Source: Naegleria gruberi (Eukaryota). From it: DNA of 64,000 bases. A model generated the notes under the pieces. That model did no database searches, was not told the origin of the DNA, and saw only the letters and a list, made by a program, of their open reading frames with translations. The stretch's first letter is position 1, and every line of letters starts with the position of its first letter. Location: NCBI GenBank assembly GCA_000004985.1, contig GG738868.1; one strand, given 5' to 3'. The position numbers and the translations under genes were made by a program. Below are positions 2,104 to 13,778 of this stretch, in pieces.

Positions 2104-5100
2104 TTAAATGCCAATTTTTAAGGACTTGCCAAGATTATTTTGTGAAAAATCAAAAACTTGTGAAAAGAATTCATATTCACTAGTCAATACAAATCTTGAA
2201 AAGGTATCAGAAAGATTCATAATGACATTATCTCTCAAATTCAAAAAACATTCATCAGCTTGTTCTTTCATTGGATTATTCTGCTTTAAATCAACCATTT
2301 CACTCTCTTGATTATTAGAAACTTGAAGCAGTTTCTTAAACTCTTTCGAACAAGAAGATGGAATATTAACTTCCATTTCAGAACCATTCTTGATATAGGT
2401 ATTGTAAATTCTTTCAATGAAATTGTTGATATCGTTTGCATTATTCGAATCCAATTTCTCCTTCTCTTGCAAATCCAAAAACAAGTACAAATTTTCAACA
2501 CTAAATTCCTTCCTGCAAAAAGCTTCAAATATTTCTCTTCCATATGAGTTTCCAATCAATTCCAACATTTCTCTATTTTCTTCTTGATCAGAAACCAGAG
2601 TTTCTGGAACTTTTCTCAATTTGAACCTAATCTTATTCGAAATGATAATCAATAGAGAATATCCACCAAACACCAGAATATAAACAGCCACATAGACCAC
2701 TTCAAATATGAATGCAATCACATCATTGGTCAGAACATTTCTATAACTCTGTTCATTATCATATCTGAAAGGAAGTGTACTCATTCCCAATGATTGATTT
2801 ACAATCAACAAGATGAAAAACACAATGTACAATAACATTTCACCTCTGAAATAGAGTGGTGTATCCATTGAGATGAGCCATTTGTGAATTCCCATTGAGG
2901 AAATTTTTTCCTTAACGATTTGTAAATCAACTTTTGTCTTTTTTGTTTCTTCTATTGATTTCTTATTGGACGAATGTTGCTTAATCATGGAATAAATGAA
3001 ATCCACAACTGCAGTGCCTGAAATGACAAGACTCAATGCAAATATGATAATAATATATGAAATGGAAATGATATAGGTATAGGCAGTAAGTGAAATGACA
3101 TCACATCTTCTTAAAATAACCCACAATGTCCAATAAAGTAAATTCAAAATGACAAATGTCAACAGAATGGAATTAACAACCTTTTTAGATGTGAATCTTT
3201 TAAGGTTTTTCAATAAACTTGATTGTGAAATATTGGATTGACTCTTTCTTAGTTGATGGAGAATATTGTAAAGATATTTCATTAATTGGAATCTCAATAC
3301 TTGAATGAGGTATGCAAGAATTGCTGTTAAATTCAAAGTATTTACAAAAATCATTACAATATTTGCAATCCAATTAGCAGCAAGATCACCACTTGACCAA
3401 TTCGTTGAATCTTTAAATAATTGATCAACTAGAACACTTCTCTGAATAATATAGATCAATAAACTTTCCACCATTAAGGCAATCATTCCCAAATAAGGAG
3501 TTGATAATCTAGAAATCAAAGGTTGACTTTTTCTAAATATTATCATTAAAATCAACACAGTGATTGAAATGATAAAGTAGAAAATACCCAAAGAAATTTG
3601 CCCATAATAAAGAGAAGCAACTTGACGTTTCGTATTATCACTTAGTGGAATAGTCTTTTGTTCGAGGAAGGTTGTAAAGAGTGTTGTGTGATTGCAAGCA
3701 CATTGAACAATTCTAGTTTCTAAATTGAAAGAATAGAGATAACATCCCTCATCACTCCAGGTTCCTGAACTTTCTTCCAAATAAGTACATGTGAAATTGT
3801 AATTGGAAGAATTTTGTAATTTTTCAAGAATGTTTTGATCCGTCAATTTGAATTCAATGATAATTGGATTGGCAAGATTCTCCAATTTTACCACTTTTTG
3901 ATTCTTTAAAAATTTGAAATCTGTTGTAATTGAAATTCCTTCACTTGTTCCATTATTATTCGAATAAGAATTGTTGAAAAGATTCGAATAGGTTAATAAA
4001 GAAACAGCACATTCACTGGAATAGGCAACATTTTGTGAAATGATATAAGAAGCATTAAAGGAAACACTTGTTTGATCTTGTTCCACTTTTTGGTTGACCA
4101 ATTGAGTGGAAGCACTTGAAATTACAAAAGCTGAAATTGTCATGTTAATATTCGATGAGGAATATGAGCTAACCACCAAACTACCATCATTAGTATCCAC
4201 ATACGTGACCAATTGACCAAGAATAATAAGATCAGCCAAATTCTGAGCTAATTCTCTTGAATTTGACAGTAAAAGTTCAGCACCAAGAAATTGAGAAGCA
4301 TACGAAAGGATTGAATTGACATTGCTGTTGGAAATCTTTGAATTAACATATCCATAGCTTGATTTACTTGTATTGTAACGGTTATACGAGTAGGATACAA
4401 GTTCTGATAATTTCGATAATGTAGTATTAGCAATAGTTTCGTCCAATTGAGTTTTTGAAATAATTTCTGAAAGACTTGACAAGGCAGATGAAGGATCACT
4501 TCCGCTAACATCTATATTACTCAATAAAGAAGCATAATACGTTGTAGATGAAGAGAATGACACGTCATAAATCAATGAAGTAATCAAATTGAAGTTTGTT
4601 CCAGAATTTGAAGAAATTTTTGAATATTCTTCCATGGTTCCATTGAAAAAAGCGACAAGTATGGATAATGATGAAGATTTGGAGTAATAATTGCCCAAAC
4701 TATCCATTACAATGATTCCCAATGAAATAGTTTCGCCAACATTCGGTAAAACAATTGACCGATTCAAATCCTGTGAAAAATCAGTAATTCTAATGGAACT
4801 TAGTTTTGAACTTGAGAATGTAATGGCATATTTCAATGGAAGTAACATTGAATCTGCACTCCATGGATTAATATTCAAGTTTACAATTTCCTTAATTGCT
4901 GAACATTTGGTTGAATTTGAATTCAATAAATTGTTTGGTGATTTTGGAGGAATTCTGAATTGTAATTCGAAAGAGGAATATAAACTAACACTGTCTATTT
5001 GTAGAGAAGCAGTTGCAGTGGATGAAAATCCAAATGTTAATGATGTGAAATTCACTGAAATTTGATTGGAAATTGAAATTGTTGGGAAAAGTGTTAAAAT

Positions 5101-8100
5101 TCCACTTTGAGTATTTTGAATTGAAATTCCAGTAAATGTTTTTGCTGAATTGGAGATTTGAACAGTAAAAGTTACTACTGAGCTAGTGAGTTTCAAAGAA
5201 TCAATAATTGTTTGGTCAACTGAAAGTTTAGAAATAATCAAATCAAAATTAACAAGATCACTTTTCGCAATATAGTAAGAAGGAAGTCCTAGAATCGAAA
5301 AAGGTCTTTCACAAATTGAAGAATATGCATTACAATAGGGTGTGAGCTTTCGAATAACACTATTTTCAGTATCAGCAAAATATAGCTCACCACTTGGTCC
5401 AATAGAAACAGTTCCTGGAGCATTCAATGAAGCAAGTGAAGCTAATCCATTATCTCCTTTGTATCCATTCGAAAGAGTTCCTGCAATTGTATAAATTGTA
5501 CCGTTTGTCAACACTTTACGAATTCTATTGGTTTCGGATATATAAATTTCTCCTCCTGAACTAATCGAAACTCCCACAGGAAGACTCAATTTAGCTGTAG
5601 TAGCTAAACCATTATCTCCACCATAACCATTTGTTCCAGTTCCAGCAATTGTAGTTATAGTTCCATTTGTGAAAACCTTTCGAATACGATTATTGGAATA
5701 GTCTGCAATAATTAATTCACCATTTGAACTCACAGCTACATCCTTAGGATTATTCAACTGTGCACTAGTTGCCTGACCTCCATCTCCTGCATATCCACCA
5801 ATTCCATTTCCAGCAATTGTAATTATCGTTCCATTTGTGAAAATCTTTCGAATTCTATGATTACCTGTGTCAGCAATGTAAATTTCTCCACTATTCGAAA
5901 TATCAAATAAAGTTGATACTAAAAAAGCGTTGCTAGCATTCAATCCATCTCCTATTCCTCCAGCAATGGTAGAAACCATTCCAGTAGTTGCCAAAATTTT
6001 ACGAATCTTCCAAGAAGAAGTTGTTTCACAAACTATCAAATTTTCACTCGAATCAAAAGTCAAACCAACAGGGTAAGCAAAATTAGTAATTGATTCATGT
6101 AAACCATCGCCGTTATATTCACTTCGACCTGTTCCTGCTATATTGGAAATTATACCAGTAACGCTAGATATAACTCGAATACGATGATTGTAATTATCTG
6201 AAATGTAAATATCACCTGTTGAACTAATTGCAATTCCGGCTGGATAAGATAATTGTGCATTGGATGCTTTCCCACCATCTCCTCCATAGGTACAAGTACC
6301 TGCTTTACCAGATATGGTAGTAATGGTACCATTCGAATAAATTTTACGAATCACACAATATACTATATCGGTAAAATAAACATTTCCTGAATTGAATAAA
6401 ACTGAAGAAGGATAACCAATGGTTGCATTGGAACCCAATCCATTGTCACCACTAAATCCATTCGTTCCAGTTCCAGCAATTGTTACGATGGTTCCATTTG
6501 TGAAAATCTTTCGAATACGATAATTACCAGCATCTGCAATGTAAATTTCATTATTTGCACCAATGGAAACATCAACAGGACTATAAAGTGATGCATTTGC
6601 GGCATCTATTCCATCTCCATTGTAAATAGTGTTTCCATTTCCTGCAATGGTTGTAATTATTCCATTATTCGAAACTTTACGAATTCTATGATTACCATAA
6701 TCAGCAATGTATAATTCTCCACTAGAAGAAATGGCAATTCCATTTGGTCTATTCAAGCATGTATTCACAGCAAGTCCTCCATCTCCACAAAATCCTGCAG
6801 TACCATTACCAGCAATAGTTGTAATTATTCCATTATTAGAAACCTTTCGAATACGATGATTATTCATATCACTAATAATTAGTTCACCATTCGTAGAATT
6901 AATAACACAATGTGATGGATAGTTCATAATAGCACTGGTTGCTGGAATATTATCTCCATTGTAAAAGATAGCTCCTGCCAATTTAACAGCAGGTCCATAA
7001 TTTAGATTAACAATTCTATCAATATACGAAACACTATTGGAAGTGTACATGACGTACATGTCATTATTAAAGAATTTGATTGAATTTGGATTGGAATAGG
7101 TCTGTATAATCGTTGTGTATCCAACAGTTCCAGCAAGTGTTGTAATCAAATTGGAAGTTAAATTAATTTGTCTGAATTGACCACTGCTGTCAGCAAATGA
7201 CAATTGATTGTTATTTAAAGACATTGAGCCAATTGGAGAAATGAATGCTGGAATTGCTGGGACATTATTTCCAAAACTACTGGTTCCTCCTGCAATCGTT
7301 GTAATTTTTCCACTGGACGAAACCTTTCTAATTCTATTGTTATTACTATCGGCAATATAAAATTCATTATTTGACGAATCAATTGCAATTCCAACAGGAT
7401 TATTAAGGGTTGCAATGGTTGCATCAATACCGTCATAATTATAACCAGATTGTCCATCACCTGCAATACTTGAAATTATCCCACTAGTAGCCGAAACCTT
7501 TCTAATTCTTTGGTAACTATCAGAAAAGTATAAATCATTACTTTTAGTCAGTGCAACAGATAATGGAAATCGAATAGGTGCATTATTAGCTAGGCTTCCA
7601 TCTGGACTGTTTGCAGCCTCTCCAGTTCCTACAATAGTTACAATAGTTCCACTTGAATAAACCTTTCGAATACGATTATTCACTAAATCTGCAAAAACAA
7701 TATTACCATCCGAGTCAATAGCCACACCAAAAGGTGTATTCAACATGGCATTCACAGCTGGTCCTCCATCTCCTGAATATCCACCTGTTCCATTTCCTGC
7801 AATAGTTGTAATCATTCCATTATTCGAAATCTTTCGAATACGATTATTGAGAGTATCAGCAATAAATACTTCACCACCAGAAGAAACAGCAATACCAATA
7901 GGATAACCCAACTGAGCACTTGTAGCAGGGATATTATCTCCATTGTAATTTGGCTCACCATTTCCTGCAATGGTTGTGATGGTACCATTCGAATAAATTT
8001 TACGAATTCGATGATTTGCATAATCAGCAAAATATACTTCACCACTTGTTGGATGGAAAGCAACACCATGTGGACTATTTACTGTGGCTTTGGTAGCATC

Positions 8101-8442
8101 TATTCCGTCTCCGTTATATCCTGCTTGACCATTACCGGCTATTGTAGAAATAATTCCATTATTCGAAATCTTTCTAATACGATTGTTGAGAGTATCAGCA
8201 ATAACAATCACACCAGAATAATAGGCAACATCTCTAACAGAATTTAACAAGGCATTCACAGCTGGTAGTCCATCACCAACAGAATTTCCTCCACCAGCCA
8301 CAGTTGTAATGTTATACGAAACTACCGACGAAACCGATTGACCACTCACACAACAACATGCGAGAATCACCACAAAAAGACTCAACCACACATCATGGCG
8401 TGTCCTTATTGTCATTTCGTTTTTTTTGATGTTCAATGTCAT
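2104..8442 (-). CDS. Giant adhesion-GPCR-like receptor. It has a signal peptide, about 18-20 NHL repeats, a Ser/Thr/Asn-rich glycosylated stalk, a GAIN/GPS motif, a 7TM domain and a C-terminal RGS domain. Single 2112-codon exon.
   Basis: Real ATG at 8442, with a second at 8415. Repeated motifs of the type 'NNRIRKI..NG.I.TIAGNG..GY.GDGG.A..A.LN.P.GVA' are NHL repeats. The GPS motif reads 'W.DEGC...ETRIVQCACNHTTLFTTFL'. Seven hydrophobic helices follow. The RGS box reads 'IFEAFCRKEFSVENLYLF...FLNLRDNVIMNLSDTFSRFV'. Confidence 0.85.
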   Translation of the reverse strand: MTLNIKKNEMTIRTRHDVWLSLFVVILACCCVSGQSVSSVVSYNITTVAGGGNSVGDGLPAVNALLNSVRDVAYYSGVIVIADTLNNRIRKISNNGIISTIAGNGQAGYNGDGIDATKATVNSPHGVAFHPTSGEVYFADYANHRIRKIYSNGTITTIAGNGEPNYNGDNIPATSAQLGYPIGIAVSSGGEVFIADTLNNRIRKISNNGMITTIAGNGTGGYSGDGGPAVNAMLNTPFGVAIDSDGNIVFADLVNNRIRKVYSSGTIVTIVGTGEAANSPDGSLANNAPIRFPLSVALTKSNDLYFSDSYQRIRKVSATSGIISSIAGDGQSGYNYDGIDATIATLNNPVGIAIDSSNNEFYIADSNNNRIRKVSSSGKITTIAGGTSSFGNNVPAIPAFISPIGSMSLNNNQLSFADSSGQFRQINLTSNLITTLAGTVGYTTIIQTYSNPNSIKFFNNDMYVMYTSNSVSYIDRIVNLNYGPAVKLAGAIFYNGDNIPATSAIMNYPSHCVINSTNGELIISDMNNHRIRKVSNNGIITTIAGNGTAGFCGDGGLAVNTCLNRPNGIAISSSGELYIADYGNHRIRKVSNNGIITTIAGNGNTIYNGDGIDAANASLYSPVDVSIGANNEIYIADAGNYRIRKIFTNGTIVTIAGTGTNGFSGDNGLGSNATIGYPSSVLFNSGNVYFTDIVYCVIRKIYSNGTITTISGKAGTCTYGGDGGKASNAQLSYPAGIAISSTGDIYISDNYNHRIRVISSVTGIISNIAGTGRSEYNGDGLHESITNFAYPVGLTFDSSENLIVCETTSSWKIRKILATTGMVSTIAGGIGDGLNASNAFLVSTLFDISNSGEIYIADTGNHRIRKIFTNGTIITIAGNGIGGYAGDGGQATSAQLNNPKDVAVSSNGELIIADYSNNRIRKVFTNGTITTIAGTGTNGYGGDNGLATTAKLSLPVGVSISSGGEIYISETNRIRKVLTNGTIYTIAGTLSNGYKGDNGLASLASLNAPGTVSIGPSGELYFADTENSVIRKLTPYCNAYSSICERPFSILGLPSYYIAKSDLVNFDLIISKLSVDQTIIDSLKLTSSVVTFTVQISNSAKTFTGISIQNTQSGILTLFPTISISNQISVNFTSLTFGFSSTATASLQIDSVSLYSSFELQFRIPPKSPNNLLNSNSTKCSAIKEIVNLNINPWSADSMLLPLKYAITFSSSKLSSIRITDFSQDLNRSIVLPNVGETISLGIIVMDSLGNYYSKSSSLSILVAFFNGTMEEYSKISSNSGTNFNLITSLIYDVSFSSSTTYYASLLSNIDVSGSDPSSALSSLSEIISKTQLDETIANTTLSKLSELVSYSYNRYNTSKSSYGYVNSKISNSNVNSILSYASQFLGAELLLSNSRELAQNLADLIILGQLVTYVDTNDGSLVVSSYSSSNINMTISAFVISSASTQLVNQKVEQDQTSVSFNASYIISQNVAYSSECAVSLLTYSNLFNNSYSNNNGTSEGISITTDFKFLKNQKVVKLENLANPIIIEFKLTDQNILEKLQNSSNYNFTCTYLEESSGTWSDEGCYLYSFNLETRIVQCACNHTTLFTTFLEQKTIPLSDNTKRQVASLYYGQISLGIFYFIISITVLILMIIFRKSQPLISRLSTPYLGMIALMVESLLIYIIQRSVLVDQLFKDSTNWSSGDLAANWIANIVMIFVNTLNLTAILAYLIQVLRFQLMKYLYNILHQLRKSQSNISQSSLLKNLKRFTSKKVVNSILLTFVILNLLYWTLWVILRRCDVISLTAYTYIISISYIIIIFALSLVISGTAVVDFIYSMIKQHSSNKKSIEETKKTKVDLQIVKEKISSMGIHKWLISMDTPLYFRGEMLLYIVFFILLIVNQSLGMSTLPFRYDNEQSYRNVLTNDVIAFIFEVVYVAVYILVFGGYSLLIIISNKIRFKLRKVPETLVSDQEENREMLELIGNSYGREIFEAFCRKEFSVENLYLFLDLQEKEKLDSNNANDINNFIERIYNTYIKNGSEMEVNIPSSCSKEFKKLLQVSNNQESEMVDLKQNNPMKEQADECFLNLRDNVIMNLSDTFSRFVLTSEYEFFSQVFDFSQNNLGKSLKIGI
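2160..2580 (-). other. RGS (regulator of G-protein signalling) domain at the cytoplasmic C-terminus (approximate).
   Basis: Conserved RGS-box motifs 'EFSxENL' and 'F..F.RF..S'. Confidence 0.75.
2655..3610 (-). other. Seven-transmembrane domain of the receptor (approximate).
   Basis: Seven hydrophobic segments of about 20-25 aa lie between the GPS motif and the RGS box. Confidence 0.7.
3688..3725 (-). other. GPS (GPCR proteolysis site) motif at the end of the GAIN-like domain.
   Basis: The sequence 'VQCACNHTTLFTTFL' matches the C-x-C-x-H-L/T-T-x-F consensus. Confidence 0.7.
5745..8310 (-). other. NHL-repeat beta-propeller region of the receptor (approximate bounds).
   Basis: Tandem ~45-aa repeats ending in '[NH]HRIRK[IV]'. 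Confidence 0.7.
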
Positions 8443-8883
8443 TATTCTCTAAAAAGGAAGTTTTTTCAATGAGAATGTTACAAGATATTAACAAACTTTC
8501 TATTAAGTTCCTGATTTTGTAAATTTGTAGAATTGTAACATGATGTCTACAGTACTGGGGATAATTAGGTTTGTTTTTATCACAGCAAATTGCATGTCAA
8601 TCTTTAAGATCTTTCCTATATAATGAAAATAGGACAAATAATTGGCGATCCTTCTTCGATGAGATTGGAGCTAGTTACAGCATTTCTAGCTCATGATAAT
8701 TCATTAATTGTGGGTATAATGCATTGAATTTTTATGGATTTGAGAATGATAATATTATTAGTTTAGCATGTGGAAAAAATCACTTTATTGCCAGATCGAA
8801 ACGAGATTTAATTGAATATCTTCAATTTTGTGGTCGAACAAATAAGGGTCCACCAATCGTTCCAACAGCCGTTTTCAAAAAAA

Positions 8884-9678
8884 ATGAGCAAACAACAACA
8901 AAACAACGCCGACACTATCACTCTCTACGGCAATCACATTAGCCAACCATCCCGAGCCATAATGTGGTTCATGTTATTGAATCAAATTCCTCACGAATTT
9001 AAATTAATTAAATTGGAGAAGGGAGAACATTTGAAGCCGGAATATAAGGAAATTAATCCAATGCAACAAGTACCTTCATTATCCATTTCATCATCTACAT
9101 CATATTCGGATCAGAAGGTTACTGTTAATTTGTTTGAAAGTCAAGCAATTTTAATTCACTTGATACATAAATATAGAAGACAATACAAGATTGCTGATTC
9201 ATGGTATCCAAATCCACATTCTGAGTTGATGGTTCATACAAAGATTAATCAATATTTGAATTATCATTTAGCATCATTGAGGATGGGAATTGCTGGATGG
9301 GCTTGGGAAGCTGCTATTGGACCAAATGCTTTTGGCACTGAGAGAAGTGAAAGAAAAATTGAATCTTTCAAGAAGAAGGGAATGAAAGTATTGAAACAAC
9401 TTGATACCTATTGGTTGAAGAAACAAGATGAAAAATGTGGAGATTACTTGTGTGGACAAGAGAAAATGTCAATTGCTGACTTGTTATTGTACAGTGAATT
9501 GATGCAATTGTTGCTGATTGTTGAATCAGCCACATTGTGGGAATCTGACTTGTTGAAAGCCTTTCCAAATGTTGCTAAATGGGCACAAATCATGTCACAA
9601 ACTCCACACCACGATAAGATTTTCCAAATTCTCTTCTTGCTTAAAGCAAAGACCTCTTCAAAACCTTCCAAATTGTAA
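8884..9678 (+). CDS. Glutathione S-transferase, theta-like.
   Basis: The N-terminal thioredoxin-like GST motif reads 'ITLYGNHISQPSRAIMWF...HLKPEYKEINPMQQVPSL'. The GST C-terminal helical domain follows. The real ATG is at 8884; the track start at 8812 is TTG. Confidence 0.8.
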   Translation: MSKQQQNNADTITLYGNHISQPSRAIMWFMLLNQIPHEFKLIKLEKGEHLKPEYKEINPMQQVPSLSISSSTSYSDQKVTVNLFESQAILIHLIHKYRRQYKIADSWYPNPHSELMVHTKINQYLNYHLASLRMGIAGWAWEAAIGPNAFGTERSERKIESFKKKGMKVLKQLDTYWLKKQDEKCGDYLCGQEKMSIADLLLYSELMQLLLIVESATLWESDLLKAFPNVAKWAQIMSQTPHHDKIFQILFLLKAKTSSKPSKL

Positions 9679-9700: not shown

Positions 9701-11563
9701 TTACATGCTTACCCTGGTTGATTCTTGTTCACGTGAATTTGTCTTTCCAGATAGTGATGTAGCATAAATGTCAGTGGAATAATTCTGCTCATATGATGGA
9801 TTGGTAGTGGTTCCACTCGTTGTTGTGAACCCAGTTAATATTCCACTATTTTCACTATCCTCATTCAACAATTTACCATTCTTTCTATTCCTCAAATTAC
9901 GAATTGGATCAATAAGACGTTGATAACATTCAGAAAATTTGGACTTGTCGAAAATAATGATAATAATCACAACAAATGTGGAAATGTTTGCAAAATTACT
10001 GACAATTTCCAAATAGAAACTGCTGATGAAAAAGTAAGCATTGGTACCAAATTGTCTTCCAAGGAAATTGCACAAACAAGCAACCAATGAAACCAACGAA
10101 AGCCCACAATATAATGAGAATTGAAACATGTACTATATTTCAATATATTAAATTGGAAAATTCAATGAAATTCTTGCACGTACCTTTGATTTGTAAAATG
10201 AAATGTGAGTCTTTTCCTGCAATTGATCACCCAACTTTTTGGCAATGTAAATGAAAACTAAAAAGTTTACAATCCATGGCAGAGAATAAGACACATAGGA
10301 CATTCCAGTAAGGATAATATTGACCTGTTGTGTCTCCAATTCATAAATAAGATATGAAACAATGTAAATGGCACATAGTGAATTGCAAACAAAACTAAAC
10401 CCAATCAATATAAGAGCAACTAGGGAATTCTTATTATCTCCAGCTTTGAGGAATTGACAAATTCTATCAAAGACCAACAGAACAGCCAGGGAACCATAAT
10501 GTGTGAAAAAGACATTCAAACTCAAAGCAATTGACGTTGTAAAGTAGAGAGTATCAAAACTATCGTACGTAGGATTCCAAAACATCATACAGGCAACCAC
10601 AACACAAATTGATTGCAACAAGATGATTATTGCACACAAGGCATTCAAAACTCGTAGCTTTCTCCGTATAATCATGGTTACAAATTCAGGAACAACATAG
10701 CCCAATATTGCAAACGGACACAAAGGTATTGAAATAAGCAATGACAGAATAAACTTGATCATATTGACAGCATCAGTTCTCAATAGAGAATTCATCACTG
10801 GATCACATAAATTTGAATAGATATCAAACCTATGACAATAGCAAAGAAATGGCGTCCTCAATCTCTCAAAATATTGATCCATAAAATAGACAGGAAACCC
10901 TGTTTGAACAGCTTCACAAAAGAAGGAAGATGGAAATCGTGTAAAAGAAGGACACTTGGATTTCTTTGTATCCGAATAATTGTCCATATCAATAATTAAA
11001 GTATGAAATTCCAAAAAATCCTTTCCCTCACTACAATATTGACAATAGTTCAATAATTCGTATTTAACCGTACTATTTTCGCCATTACAAAATGTTTCTA
11101 CACAGCTCACATTAGAATATTTTGCACACAAATCAAAATGGTCTCCCATAGGTTTAACAGGAGAGAATAAATTAGAATTCCTATCCTCCACATAGGCAGT
11201 TCCAAATGGTATCGACATTATCTTATCTGGAAAGTACACTTGTCGACATCCAAATCCAAAAGGTAAATCATAAAACTCAATAAAATTATCATTAATAAAT
11301 ATCTTCCTACTCGTTCCATTATCCGATCGTTCTATATAGGAACAATCCATCCATCTGTAGAATACATCAGAAGATTCCCTTCCAATGACAAAATCCCCAA
11401 TAATAAAAATCATCATGATGGTCGAATACAATATTATTTTCATCAAGGAAATATTCTTCTTCATCAGCCTACTACTAGTACTATCAATGAAATTCTGATG
11501 ATGACCAGAAGCAACGGGTGCTCTTAAAAGTCGCGACATTTTTTTGTGGTTGTTTTTAACCAT
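9701..11563 (-). CDS. Cys-rich ectodomain plus 7TM receptor-like protein, paralog 1. Two exons: ~10184..11563 and 9701..~10132.
   Basis: ATG at 11563. An N-terminal signal-anchor helix is followed by an ~230-aa ectodomain with a conserved Cys pattern and then seven TM helices. It aligns along its whole length to the downstream paralog; for example 'FYKSK|YMFQFSLYCGL' matches 'FFKTKYFYQFCALNTL'. Confidence 0.75.
10133..10183 (-). other. Phase-0 GT-AG intron of 51 nt in paralog 1. It is absent from paralog 2.
   Basis: The intron reads 'gtacgtgcaag...aaatatag' on the minus strand. Removing it restores alignment with the intronless paralog. Confidence 0.75.
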
Positions 11564-11768
11564 TACGGCAAATTTACGGAGCTTTTTTGGTTACTCCTTA
11601 GAATTTGGCAATTTTATTGTAAAGAGGAAGAAAGTACGTTCTTAGAGGAAAGGTTTTAAGTGGAGCACTTGGCTGTGCAAGGACAAATTAAATAACTCTT
11701 CCCATAAGTTTCCCAGAAGGTTCCATCTCAAAATTTAACATAAAAATCTTACAATATTTAGAAGATTT

Positions 11769-13778
11769 CTAGTTAATAGTTACATTGTTTGAGGATAATT
11801 CACTCACAAAGGATGTTGGGGTTGGTGGTACATAGTAAGAACTGTCTTTTCTATAGGTTTGATCTGAGTTGGTTGTTGAGTTGGTTGGTGGATAGGAAAC
11901 TGGAATTGAATTATTGTAATTTGTTTCTTCATTCGTTTCTTCGCTGGACAACAGAGAATCTTTGAGTTGATTATTATTCCTTCTACTATCGAATAATTTG
12001 AATAGTTGTAATATTGGTCTGTAACAATCGGTAAATAATTGAGAATCGTAGAGAATAACCAACATGATTAGAAGGGTTGAATAATTTGCAAATAGACTCA
12101 CTTGTTCAATATAGTAACTGAATTGATAAGTAGTAGAGTCGCTTCCAAATTGTCTTGCTAAAAATGCAGATAGACATGAGAATAAGGCAATACCTGACAA
12201 GGTGTTGAGGGCACAGAATTGATAGAAATACTTGGTTTTGAAAAATGGAACATTTGTCTTATTTCTAAGGGCCTTTCTCAATCGATATGATAAAACGAAA
12301 AACAACATCAAGTTATCAATCCATGGAATGGCAAAAGCAATATAACCAATCGCAACAACAATTGTTGCAATGGTTAGTCCTATTTTGGAAAATTCTAAAA
12401 TGTAACTTGTTGTCACATAAACTGCATTGATTGTCAATAAGATAAATGCCATCAAAATCATAATCTTGAACTTTGGACAATTACGTTTCTCTCCCGTATA
12501 TAAATAATTGTAAATTCTATCAAAGGTTAACATGACTGGTAACATGGAATAATAAGTGAAAAAGACATTGAAAGAGAGTGCCATATTTGAAAGGGTAGTG
12601 TTTTCAGATTCACCCAAGTAAGCAACAGCATACATGACACTTGAAATGACAACAGAACTAGATGCTGCCAATATAGTTAAAATACTGCAAGTATTGAGAA
12701 TGCCAATTTTTCTAACTCTTGATACTTGTCTAATTTGTGGAATTACATAGGTTATCAATGCTCCTAAGGCCAAAGAAGTGGAAAATAATATTGAAACGAC
12801 AATCTTGGCAAAATCAAATGCTGTGGTGAATAAAGATGAGTCACACATTGAATTAAAAGTTGAATATGTATGACAAAAGCAAAAGAATGGATTCCTTAAC
12901 CGTATGTAAAAACTATCCAAAAAATACAAGGGAAGGCCAGTTTGAATATTTCCACAATAGAAAGCTGATGGGAAAGTGGCAAATGCAGGACATTCAACAT
13001 TTCTAGAGGTAGTTTCATTTACTACAGCATCCTCTCTGTAATAAATCTTGTACTGAAATTGCAAAAAATCCTCCCTATTGTTCTTGCAATATTTACAATA
13101 ATTGAAAATTTCATACTTGTATGGATCTACACTTCCTAGAGATGAATTAGAGTAGCAAAAATAATCCATACAGCTGACATTTGAATATTTCTGACAAATA
13201 TCAATATTAACTCTACCAGGTTTAATTGGCGAAAATATGTCACTATTTCTTTCATTCATATGTTGAGTGCCAAAAGGTATTGATGTAATACTAGGTAATT
13301 TGACAACTTTACATCCAAATCCAAAAGGAAGGTCCTTAATACGAGGTAAATTACTCTTACTTATTGGAACAGTCTCAGTAGCTCCATTCAATAAAGGCCT
13401 CTCATACGAACAATCTTCAAATAGATTGAACACTTGCGCTGAAGATGATGGTAAAGTTCGTTCTCTCCCAGTTGCTACTTTACTTTCAATATTCTCTCCT
13501 TTAATTTGGGTCAATGTTGAAATATGATGCTGCCGATCATCAAATAGTTTCGTCGTTAAAGATGAATTTGTAGTATTCATTATAAATTGCATAATAGCTA
13601 GTGTACATAAACTCGACATGATGAAAATTACTAAAATTATTAACCAGCCGATGGGCAGTCGATGATTATTATTATCATTGTCATCATTATGCACAATAAT
13701 GGCAGACTTTTGTGAGATGGGCACTTCAACACTATTCACAACGATCCCCACACAATTATTGTTGTTATTATTATTCAT
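11769..13778 (-). CDS. Cys-rich ectodomain plus 7TM receptor-like protein, paralog 2. Single 669-codon exon with an N-terminal poly-Asn tract.
   Basis: ATG at 13778. Motifs shared with paralog 1 include FGFGC, D.C.KYSNVSC...FC, NYC.YC, CP.F..FPS.F.C and F.C.CH; twelve Cys are conserved. Seven TM helices follow the ectodomain. Confidence 0.8.
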   Translation of the reverse strand: MNNNNNNNCVGIVVNSVEVPISQKSAIIVHNDDNDNNNHRLPIGWLIILVIFIMSSLCTLAIMQFIMNTTNSSLTTKLFDDRQHHISTLTQIKGENIESKVATGRERTLPSSSAQVFNLFEDCSYERPLLNGATETVPISKSNLPRIKDLPFGFGCKVVKLPSITSIPFGTQHMNERNSDIFSPIKPGRVNIDICQKYSNVSCMDYFCYSNSSLGSVDPYKYEIFNYCKYCKNNREDFLQFQYKIYYREDAVVNETTSRNVECPAFATFPSAFYCGNIQTGLPLYFLDSFYIRLRNPFFCFCHTYSTFNSMCDSSLFTTAFDFAKIVVSILFSTSLALGALITYVIPQIRQVSRVRKIGILNTCSILTILAASSSVVISSVMYAVAYLGESENTTLSNMALSFNVFFTYYSMLPVMLTFDRIYNYLYTGEKRNCPKFKIMILMAFILLTINAVYVTTSYILEFSKIGLTIATIVVAIGYIAFAIPWIDNLMLFFVLSYRLRKALRNKTNVPFFKTKYFYQFCALNTLSGIALFSCLSAFLARQFGSDSTTYQFSYYIEQVSLFANYSTLLIMLVILYDSQLFTDCYRPILQLFKLFDSRRNNNQLKDSLLSSEETNEETNYNNSIPVSYPPTNSTTNSDQTYRKDSSYYVPPTPTSFVSELSSNNVTIN

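What the first reader, a model, noticed from the sequence alone, without database searches (positions are those of the whole stretch)
9701..13778. Tandem pair of paralogous genes encoding a Cys-rich ectodomain plus seven TM helices, with no recognisable family signature
Two adjacent minus-strand genes, 9701..11563 and 11769..13778, encode proteins that align end to end. Each has an N-terminal anchor helix, a ~230-aa ectodomain with about 12 conserved cysteines (FGFGC, D.C.KYSNVSC..FC, NYC.YC, CP.F..FPS.F.C, F.C.CH) and several NxS/T sites, then seven TM helices and a cytoplasmic tail. Paralog 1 has a phase-0 51-nt intron at 10133..10183 that paralog 2 lacks. Paralog 2 has gained an N-terminal poly-Asn tract. 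The Cys pattern is not one I can assign to Frizzled-CRD, GPCR family 2/3 N-domains or other known ectodomains. This may be a lineage-specific receptor family expanding by tandem duplication.
Basis: seen in the sequence. Interest (0 to 1): 0.7.

Follow-up and report, generated by a model that had tools for sequence, protein, structure and literature searches.

The report
Orphan Naegleria cysteine-rich 7TM receptor pair
Two neighbouring Naegleria gruberi genes belong to a previously undescribed receptor-like family, seen only in Naegleria and related amoebae, that joins a new disulfide-rich outer domain to a seven-helix membrane bundle shaped like a G-protein-coupled receptor.

Summary
The window is Naegleria gruberi. 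The two minus-strand genes (9701..11563 with a 51-nt GT..AG phase-0 intron; 11769..13778) encode 603- and 669-aa proteins. They align at 36% identity over 551 residues (E 2e-112). Both share 12 ectodomain cysteines and seven TM helices with N-out/C-in topology.

No Pfam or PDB sequence match exists. A profile search of 1.84 billion representative proteins found only 23 relatives. All are from Naegleria (at least 6 N. gruberi genes, four subfamilies) or from unnamed environmental contigs. The one contig examined is heterolobosean.

- The intron position is shared with four paralogs in two other species, so it is ancestral and paralog 2 lost it.
- The public model of paralog 1 is truncated to 356 aa.
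- Tandem expansion recurs: there is a triple array in N. lovaniensis.

Best reading: a lineage-specific GPCR-fold sensor family. G-protein coupling is inferred, not shown. Moderately interesting: a new variant of a known kind.

The parts
11769..13778 (-). Paralog 2, single-exon CDS, 669 aa (100% identical to a GenBank 'predicted protein [Naegleria gruberi]', P0001)
12843..13427 (-). Paralog 2 Cys-rich ectodomain (residues ~118-312; 12 Cys; predicted N-terminal beta-sheet, a helical middle part, and short strands leading into TM1)
12051..12827 (-). Paralog 2 seven-helix bundle (residues 318-576), followed by a helix-8-like segment 579-609 and a disordered tail
10184..11563 (-). Paralog 1 exon 1 (residues 1-460: N-terminal signal/anchor helix, ectodomain, TM1-TM5 and most of cytoplasmic loop 3)
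10133..10183 (-). Paralog 1 intron, 51 nt, GT..AG, phase 0, at the loop 3/TM6 boundary; the position is shared with paralogs in N. lovaniensis and N. fowleri
9701..10132 (-). Paralog 1 exon 2 (residues 461-603: TM6, TM7, helix 8, tail ending in the conserved V-S-M)
10805..11359 (-). Paralog 1 Cys-rich ectodomain (residues ~69-253; 12 Cys)

Best explanation
These are two old tandem paralogs, both under purifying selection. They belong to a so far undescribed family found only in Naegleria and in environmental sequences, of which the one contig examined is heterolobosean.

Each protein has four parts:
1. A signal peptide or signal-anchor.
2. A ~200-residue glycosylated extracellular domain with 12 conserved cysteines, enough for six disulfides (pairing not examined), which has no detectable relative.
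3. A seven-helix bundle with the GPCR/rhodopsin fold, starting immediately after the ectodomain.
4. A helix 8 and a disordered cytoplasmic tail.

The most likely mechanism is that the ectodomain binds an external ligand or surface, such as prey, a cell or a matrix cue. Because the last ectodomain disulfide motif (C-x-C-x9-C) sits only ~8 residues before TM1, that binding would be passed directly to the helix bundle. The bundle's conserved cytoplasmic elements would then engage a cytosolic transducer, most plausibly one of Naegleria's many G-alpha subunits. These elements are the F-D-R motif at the inner end of TM3 in this subfamily, the basic loop-3 motif [KR]-K-x-[ST]-[DN]-[IV], and the F/Y-D-x3-F-x3-Y motif at the TM7/helix-8 junction.

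Shown here: gene structures, paralogy, family distribution, topology, predicted fold, conserved motifs.
Inferred: cell-surface location, ligand binding, G-protein coupling.
For: - Paralogy: E 2e-112.
- Purifying selection: dN 0.60 against a near-saturated dS of ~2, omega <=0.3; ectodomain 0.22, 7TM 0.39. The ectodomain is also the better conserved part, 45.5% against 34% identity.
- Family: 23 representatives, in Naegleria gruberi, N. fowleri, N. lovaniensis and environmental sequences. The one contig examined has a GCN5 neighbour closest to Acrasis, Willaertia and Naegleria. Nine Cys are invariant and a tenth is >=90% conserved across the 23 aligned members. Four subfamilies.
- Topology: positive-inside rule, and glycosylation sequons in the predicted outer parts.
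- Conserved cytoplasmic motifs: F-D-R is invariant in the four subfamily-A sequences; the loop-3 and TM7/H8 motifs occur across subfamilies.
- Context: N. fowleri has many G-alpha subunits, some needing an exchange factor, but only one sequence-recognisable GPCR. Unnamed 7TM candidates were mentioned there as 'data not shown' (PMC9283941).
Against: - No sequence-level link to any GPCR family.
- The canonical TM3-ECL2 disulfide of GPCR classes A, B, C and F is absent.
- The F-D-R motif is confined to subfamily A. Other subfamilies have W-x-x there.
- Subfamilies B-D end in Y-x-x-hydrophobic motifs, which would also fit an endomembrane trafficking protein.
- The structure is a prediction from a shallow alignment.
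- The ectodomain fold could not be searched on its own: afdb50 was unavailable and the structure jobs were exhausted.
- No expression or localisation data.
Confidence: 0.6

Rival explanations
1. A GPCR-fold membrane protein that does not signal through G proteins. It would be a cargo or trafficking receptor, or an adhesion molecule, of the secretory/endolysosomal system. The analogy is to GOLD-domain 7TM (GOST) proteins such as TMEM87, GPR107/108 and Wntless, which have a luminal domain plus 7TM.
For: Architecture of a luminal/extracellular domain plus 7TM. Y-x-x-hydrophobic motifs sit at the extreme C-terminus in subfamilies B, C and D (YSLV, YQQI, YSKM, YSEF, YSQM, YTRF). There is no GPCR sequence signature and no TM3-ECL2 disulfide.
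Confidence: 0.25
2. A seven-helix transporter, channel or light-driven pump, on the strength of the microbial-rhodopsin-like fold match.
Against: No Lys in TM7 in any member, so no retinal Schiff base. The permease hits are non-significant (E 1.5-9). A large disulfide-rich ectodomain fused directly to TM1 is a receptor architecture, not a pump architecture.
Confidence: 0.05
3. A weak member of the plant-type THH1/TOM1/TOM3 7TM family (Pfam PF06454).
For: One environmental cluster (P0009, P0029, P0030) hits PF06454 at E 0.024, 14.5 bits, covering TM2-TM5.
Against: The score is below the 25-bit gathering threshold. The hit comes from one cluster of near-identical sequences only. Neither window protein nor any named Naegleria member hits it, even at E<=10 for the two window proteins and E<=1 for the other members.
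Confidence: 0.05
4. Decaying duplicates, pseudogenes or annotation artefacts.
For: The public model of paralog 1 is a 356-aa fragment. There is no expression evidence here.
Against: Both reading frames are intact over 603 and 669 codons. Omega is <=0.3. All 12 Cys and the TM motifs are retained. The splice site and intron position are conserved across species.
Confidence: 0.03

Closest known systems
Class A (rhodopsin-like) GPCRs, e.g. P2Y1, MRGPRD, CB1/CB2 (closest solved structures)
   Different: 5-12% identity and no profile-level similarity. No TM3-ECL2 disulfide, no NPxxY, no CWxP. A ~200-residue, 12-Cys ectodomain joined directly to TM1.
Frizzled/Smoothened (class F) and other CRD-bearing 7TM receptors
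   Same: The general plan of a cysteine-rich extracellular domain followed by 7TM.
   Different: No Pfam Fz match. hhalign probability is 0.07% against Naegleria's own Fz-domain proteins. The Cys spacing differs, and the predicted fold is mixed alpha/beta rather than the all-helical Fz CRD. There is no long linker: the last Cys lies ~8 residues before TM1.
Naegleria 7TM-RGS 'adhesion-like' receptors (PMC9283941), including the neighbour at window 2104..8442
   Same: Same organisms. A large extracellular region plus 7TM. A Cys motif just ahead of TM1 that superficially recalls a GPS (C-x-C). Genomic proximity in subfamily A.
   Different: No GPS and no RGS domain. hhalign of the two 7TM regions gives probability 0.2%.
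GOLD-domain seven-TM (GOST) proteins: TMEM87, GPR107/108, Wntless
   Same: A luminal/extracellular domain plus a GPCR-fold 7TM. Tyrosine-based tail motifs in some subfamilies.

Membership tests
GPCR/rhodopsin-type 7TM fold superfamily | Seven TM helices, N-terminus outside, C-terminus inside | tested here: met
   AlphaFold helices at 318-355, 360-388, 394-428, 435-463, 468-507, 516-544 and 548-576 of paralog 2. K+R 4/5/7 in inner loops against 0/1/1 in outer loops.
GPCR/rhodopsin-type 7TM fold superfamily | Three-dimensional helix arrangement superposable on solved GPCRs | tested here: met
G-protein-coupled receptors in the functional sense | Ligand-dependent nucleotide exchange on a G-alpha subunit | not testable with these tools
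   Needs biochemistry. Only indirect motif evidence exists.
GPCR classes A/B/C/F | Significant match to a class profile (7tm_1, 7tm_2, 7tm_3, Frizzled, Dicty_CAR etc.) | tested here: not met
   Pfam gives 0 families at E<=10 for both proteins. No 7TM family appears among 23 members except a sub-threshold PF06454 hit. PDB profile searches are empty.
GPCR classes A/B/C/F | Conserved disulfide between the top of TM3 and extracellular loop 2 | tested here: not met
   Neither paralog has a Cys in the outer half of TM3 or in ECL2 (Cys positions; alignment).
Frizzled-type CRD (Pfam PF01392) | 10-Cys Fz domain profile match | tested here: not met
   No Fz hit. hhalign of ectodomain alignment A6 against Naegleria Fz proteins A7 gives probability 0.07%.
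Adhesion GPCR / 7TM-RGS | GPS/GAIN motif before TM1, and a C-terminal RGS domain for 7TM-RGS | tested here: not met
   No GPS or RGS hit in either protein. The neighbour at 2104..8442 has both. hhalign of the 7TM regions gives probability 0.2%.
Microbial (type I) rhodopsins | Retinal-binding Lys in TM7 | tested here: not met
   No Lys in TM7 of any aligned member.
THH1/TOM1/TOM3 (PF06454) | Score above the Pfam gathering threshold (25 bits) | tested here: not met
   The best score is 14.5 bits, E 0.024, in one environmental cluster only.
GOLD-domain 7TM (GOST) | N-terminal GOLD beta-sandwich plus a Lung_7-TM_R/TMEM87-type 7TM | tested here: inconclusive
   No sequence match. The predicted ectodomain has about four helices besides its strands. 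The ectodomain could not be fold-searched alone.

The most novel reading that the evidence does not exclude
This family supplies the 'missing' exchange-factor-type GPCRs of Heterolobosea. In this reading, its new disulfide-rich ectodomain senses prey or environmental cues and activates the slow-exchanging Naegleria G-alpha subunits. Subfamily-A members would work as functional pairs with the adjacent 7TM-RGS (GAP) receptor genes. That would place an independently evolved GPCR class, with a novel ligand-binding fold, in one of the deepest eukaryotic branches.
Probability: 0.15. Interest if true: 0.75.

Novelty: new variant of a known kind. Interest (0 to 1): 0.5.

Why it matters
Naegleria, including the lethal N. 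fowleri, has a large set of G-alpha subunits and 28 7TM-RGS proteins, but only one receptor recognisable as a GPCR by sequence (PMC9283941). The family described here has the GPCR fold, an unassignable ectodomain and orthologs in N. fowleri. It gives concrete candidates for the missing upstream sensors, and GPCR-fold surface proteins absent from humans are natural drug or diagnostic targets.

It also shows that current gene models under-report the family. Several are cut at a conserved intron to five TM helices, and one is fused to a methyltransferase. Catalogues that select 7TM proteins from annotated proteomes will therefore miss them.

On the cautious side, lineage-specific orphan 7TM families are common in protists, and nothing here demonstrates function.

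Tried and rejected
- The first AlphaFold run, with a 5-sequence alignment, was unusable (pLDDT 50). It was repeated with 23 sequences.
The two exons were supplied separately instead.
- The search for homologous proteins with paralog 2 returned only 3 proteins, and with the family alignment only the query itself. The word index was probably swamped by low-complexity words.
- Foldseek against afdb50 was not available, so the ectodomain fold remains unclassified.
- PDB profile searches with the whole family, the 7TM part and the ectodomain gave nothing, apart from a spurious Rop hit at E 0.007.
- The Frizzled-CRD, GPS/adhesion, 7TM-RGS, microbial-rhodopsin and TOM1/THH1 readings were each tested and rejected.
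It only gives omega <=0.3.
- Gene-position look-ups failed for N. gruberi paralogs and for N. fowleri P0002. The orthologous N. fowleri locus of the window pair could therefore not be inspected.
- A literature search by locus tags gave zero papers. A search of the supplements of PMC8296547 gave no real match.
- I considered whether the conserved C-terminal V-S-M is a read-through splice donor (GTAAGC in paralog 1). This was rejected because N. lovaniensis encodes the same V-S-M with GTA TCA ATG.
Full report
**Origin and observation**

Paralog 2 is 100% identical to a GenBank 'predicted protein [Naegleria gruberi]' on a 427,589-bp contig. The window is 30-38% G+C. ORF listing and direct reading confirm both genes on the minus strand.

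Paralog 1 needs a 51-nt intron (10183..10133, GTACGT…ATAG, phase 0). Unspliced, the frame ends after 11 more codons. Spliced, it reads …SFYKSK|YMFQF…, matching …PFFKTKYFYQF… in paralog 2. The spliced protein is 603 aa and paralog 2 is 669 aa.

BLASTP of the two gives 36% identity over 551 columns, E 2e-112. tblastn finds no third copy in the window.

**Family**

- Pfam returns nothing at E<=10 for either protein.
- PDB phmmer returns nothing.
- A word-indexed search found only one N. fowleri and one N. lovaniensis relative.
- An exhaustive HMMER profile search of 1.84 billion representatives found 23 proteins at E<=1e-3.

Cluster look-ups name the hits:
- N. gruberi: NAEGRDRAFT_67574 (paralog 1), _63548, _73843, _72913, _73520/_76743.
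- N. fowleri: FDP41_006849, FDP41_009793, plus an unnamed product.
- N. lovaniensis: C9374_004091, _000296, _009188.
- The rest are unnamed environmental proteins.

One environmental contig (L002) carries a GCN5 gene. Its best named matches are Acrasis kona (66%), Willaertia magna (56%) and N. lovaniensis (52%), ahead of fungi (<=48%). That contig is therefore from a non-Naegleria heterolobosean. The source organisms of the other environmental members were not examined.

A neighbour-joining tree gives four subfamilies. The window pair groups with N. fowleri P0002 in subfamily A. Across 23 sequences, nine Cys are invariant, a tenth is >=90% conserved, and one Pro at the end of TM1 is invariant. 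The core signature is C…SC-x3-[FL]C … N-x-C-x-Y-C … C … C … C-x-C-x9-C, then TM1.

**Structure**

With only five sequences AlphaFold failed (pLDDT 50). With the 23-sequence alignment, residues 100-610 of paralog 2 gave pLDDT 79 and pTM 0.71. The model has:
- an N-terminal four-stranded sheet;
- a helical middle part carrying the SC..FC and NYC.YC motifs;
- short strands carrying the C-x-C motif that run straight into TM1;
- seven long helices and a helix-8-like segment.

Loop charges follow the positive-inside rule for an N-out topology. The membrane domain therefore has the GPCR/rhodopsin fold but belongs to no sequence family. Profile searches of PDB with the 7TM part alone give no hit.

No member has a Lys in TM7, so it is not a retinal protein. 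There is no TM3-ECL2 disulfide.

**Ectodomain**

By sequence it has no relative:
- Its profile against PDB gives only a spurious Rop hit.
- hhalign against Naegleria's own Frizzled-domain proteins gives probability 0.07%.
- Pfam GPS and Fz do not hit.

It is better conserved between the paralogs than the membrane part (45.5% against 34% identity; omega 0.22 against 0.39). That pattern fits a domain with a specific binding job.

**Conserved cytoplasmic features (sequence observation)**

- F-D-R lies two turns from the inner end of TM3 and is invariant in subfamily A. Other subfamilies have W-x-x there.
- A basic loop-3 motif, [KR]-K-x-[ST]-[DN]-[IV]-x-F, occurs across subfamilies.
- F/Y-D-x3-F-x3-Y sits at the TM7/helix-8 junction.
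- Subfamily A tails end in V-S-M. This is encoded by different Ser codons in N. gruberi and N. lovaniensis, so it is conserved at the protein level.
- Subfamilies B-D end in Y-x-x-hydrophobic motifs.

**Gene history**

The intron of paralog 1 sits at exactly the same codon boundary and phase in four other genes:
- N. lovaniensis C9374_004091 (134 nt);
- N. lovaniensis C9374_000296 (76 nt);
- N. fowleri FDP41_006849;
- N. fowleri FDP41_009793 (200 nt).

It is absent from paralog 2 and from N. lovaniensis C9374_009188. The intron is therefore ancestral and paralog 2 lost it.

Several public or metagenomic models stop a few codons into this intron (…K|VS…). This includes the N. gruberi model of paralog 1, which also starts at an internal Met and is only 356 aa. 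FDP41_009793 is fused to the downstream O-methyltransferase.

Synonymous sites between the paralogs are near saturation (pS 0.70), so the duplication is old. Paralog 1 is marginally closer to N. fowleri P0002 (40%) than to paralog 2 (38%). N. lovaniensis has three subfamily-B genes in tandem, so tandem duplication is the family's habit.

**Context**

- Downstream of paralog 1 lie a convergent GST gene and then a 2112-aa NHL-repeat/GPS/7TM/RGS protein.
- The related A2 genes of N. lovaniensis and N. fowleri lie head-to-head with a GPS-RGS 7TM gene and a small Fz-domain gene.
- Subfamily B and C loci have no such neighbour.
- The 7TM regions of the two families are unrelated by hhalign.

This adjacency is a lead, not evidence of function.

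**Literature**

- No paper in the library names these genes.
[quoted passage not shown] It also reports both self-activating and exchange-limited G-alpha subunits.
- PMC8296547 lists ten or fewer architecture-defined 'adhesion GPCRs' per species. I could not find these genes' identifiers in the supplements held.

**Verdict**

The pair belongs to a family seen only in Heterolobosea and undescribed in the searched literature, with a GPCR-fold 7TM and a novel 12-Cys ectodomain.

The most likely function is extracellular sensing coupled to cytoplasmic transducers, plausibly G proteins. This is inferred. Confidence is about 0.4 for G-protein coupling specifically and 0.6 for a signalling receptor in general. 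A non-signalling trafficking or adhesion role is the main rival.

Novelty: a new variant of a known kind. Interest: moderate.

Noticed in passing
window 2104..8442 (-): A 2112-aa ORF with NHL repeats (Pfam E 7e-80), a GPS motif (residues 1551-1590) and a C-terminal RGS domain (E 5e-12). It is a Naegleria 7TM-RGS 'adhesion-like' receptor of the kind characterised in N. fowleri (PMC9283941). It lies head-to-tail downstream of the paralog pair, with only a GST gene (8812..9678, +) between them.
   Followed up: partly
L001 3465-8653 and L006 3564-8772: In N. lovaniensis and N. fowleri, the related subfamily-A2 gene lies head-to-head with a GPS+RGS 7TM gene and next to a ~190-aa secreted Frizzled-CRD (PF01392) protein. 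Subfamily-A genes sit near 7TM-RGS genes at two paralogous loci across all three species, whereas subfamily B and C loci do not. This could reflect functional pairing or just inherited synteny.
   Followed up: partly
L003 5855-7711, 7826-9703, 10001-11591: Three tandem, same-strand subfamily-B paralogs in N. lovaniensis, 41-49% identical to each other. The first two have no Pfam annotation.
   Followed up: yes
window 9701..11563; public model XP_002677177 / NAEGRDRAFT_67574 (P0004): The public N. gruberi model of paralog 1 is only 356 aa. It starts at internal Met116 and reads into the 51-nt intron, losing the N-terminal part of the ectodomain and TM6-TM7. P0005, P0012 and P0015 are truncated at the same intron position in the same way.
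   Followed up: yes
L006 10001-12987 (N. fowleri FDP41_009793, P0037): This gene model fuses the 7TM family member to the downstream O-methyltransferase through a GTGAGT donor just before the stop codon. In N. lovaniensis the two are annotated as separate genes. It is unclear whether read-through splicing is real.
   Followed up: partly
C-termini of family members (alignment A3, columns ~1030-1056): Subfamily A tails end in V-S-M (paralog 1, P0002, P0007; internal in P0003). Subfamilies B-D end in Y-x-x-hydrophobic motifs, which look like adaptor-binding sorting signals. Paralog 1 and P0007 also share an NPSY in the tail.
   Followed up: partly
P0019 (299-aa metagenome protein): Its N-terminal ectodomain belongs to this family, but residues 231-275 match cytochrome oxidase subunit III (Pfam E 5.6e-13). 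On a 956-bp contig this is probably an assembly chimera.
   Followed up: no
window 13755..13778 (-): Paralog 2 starts with M-N7. The ~44 residues before its hydrophobic anchor have no counterpart in relatives, most of which have a short signal-peptide-like N-terminus. The true start or topology of the N-terminus is uncertain for both paralogs.
   Followed up: no
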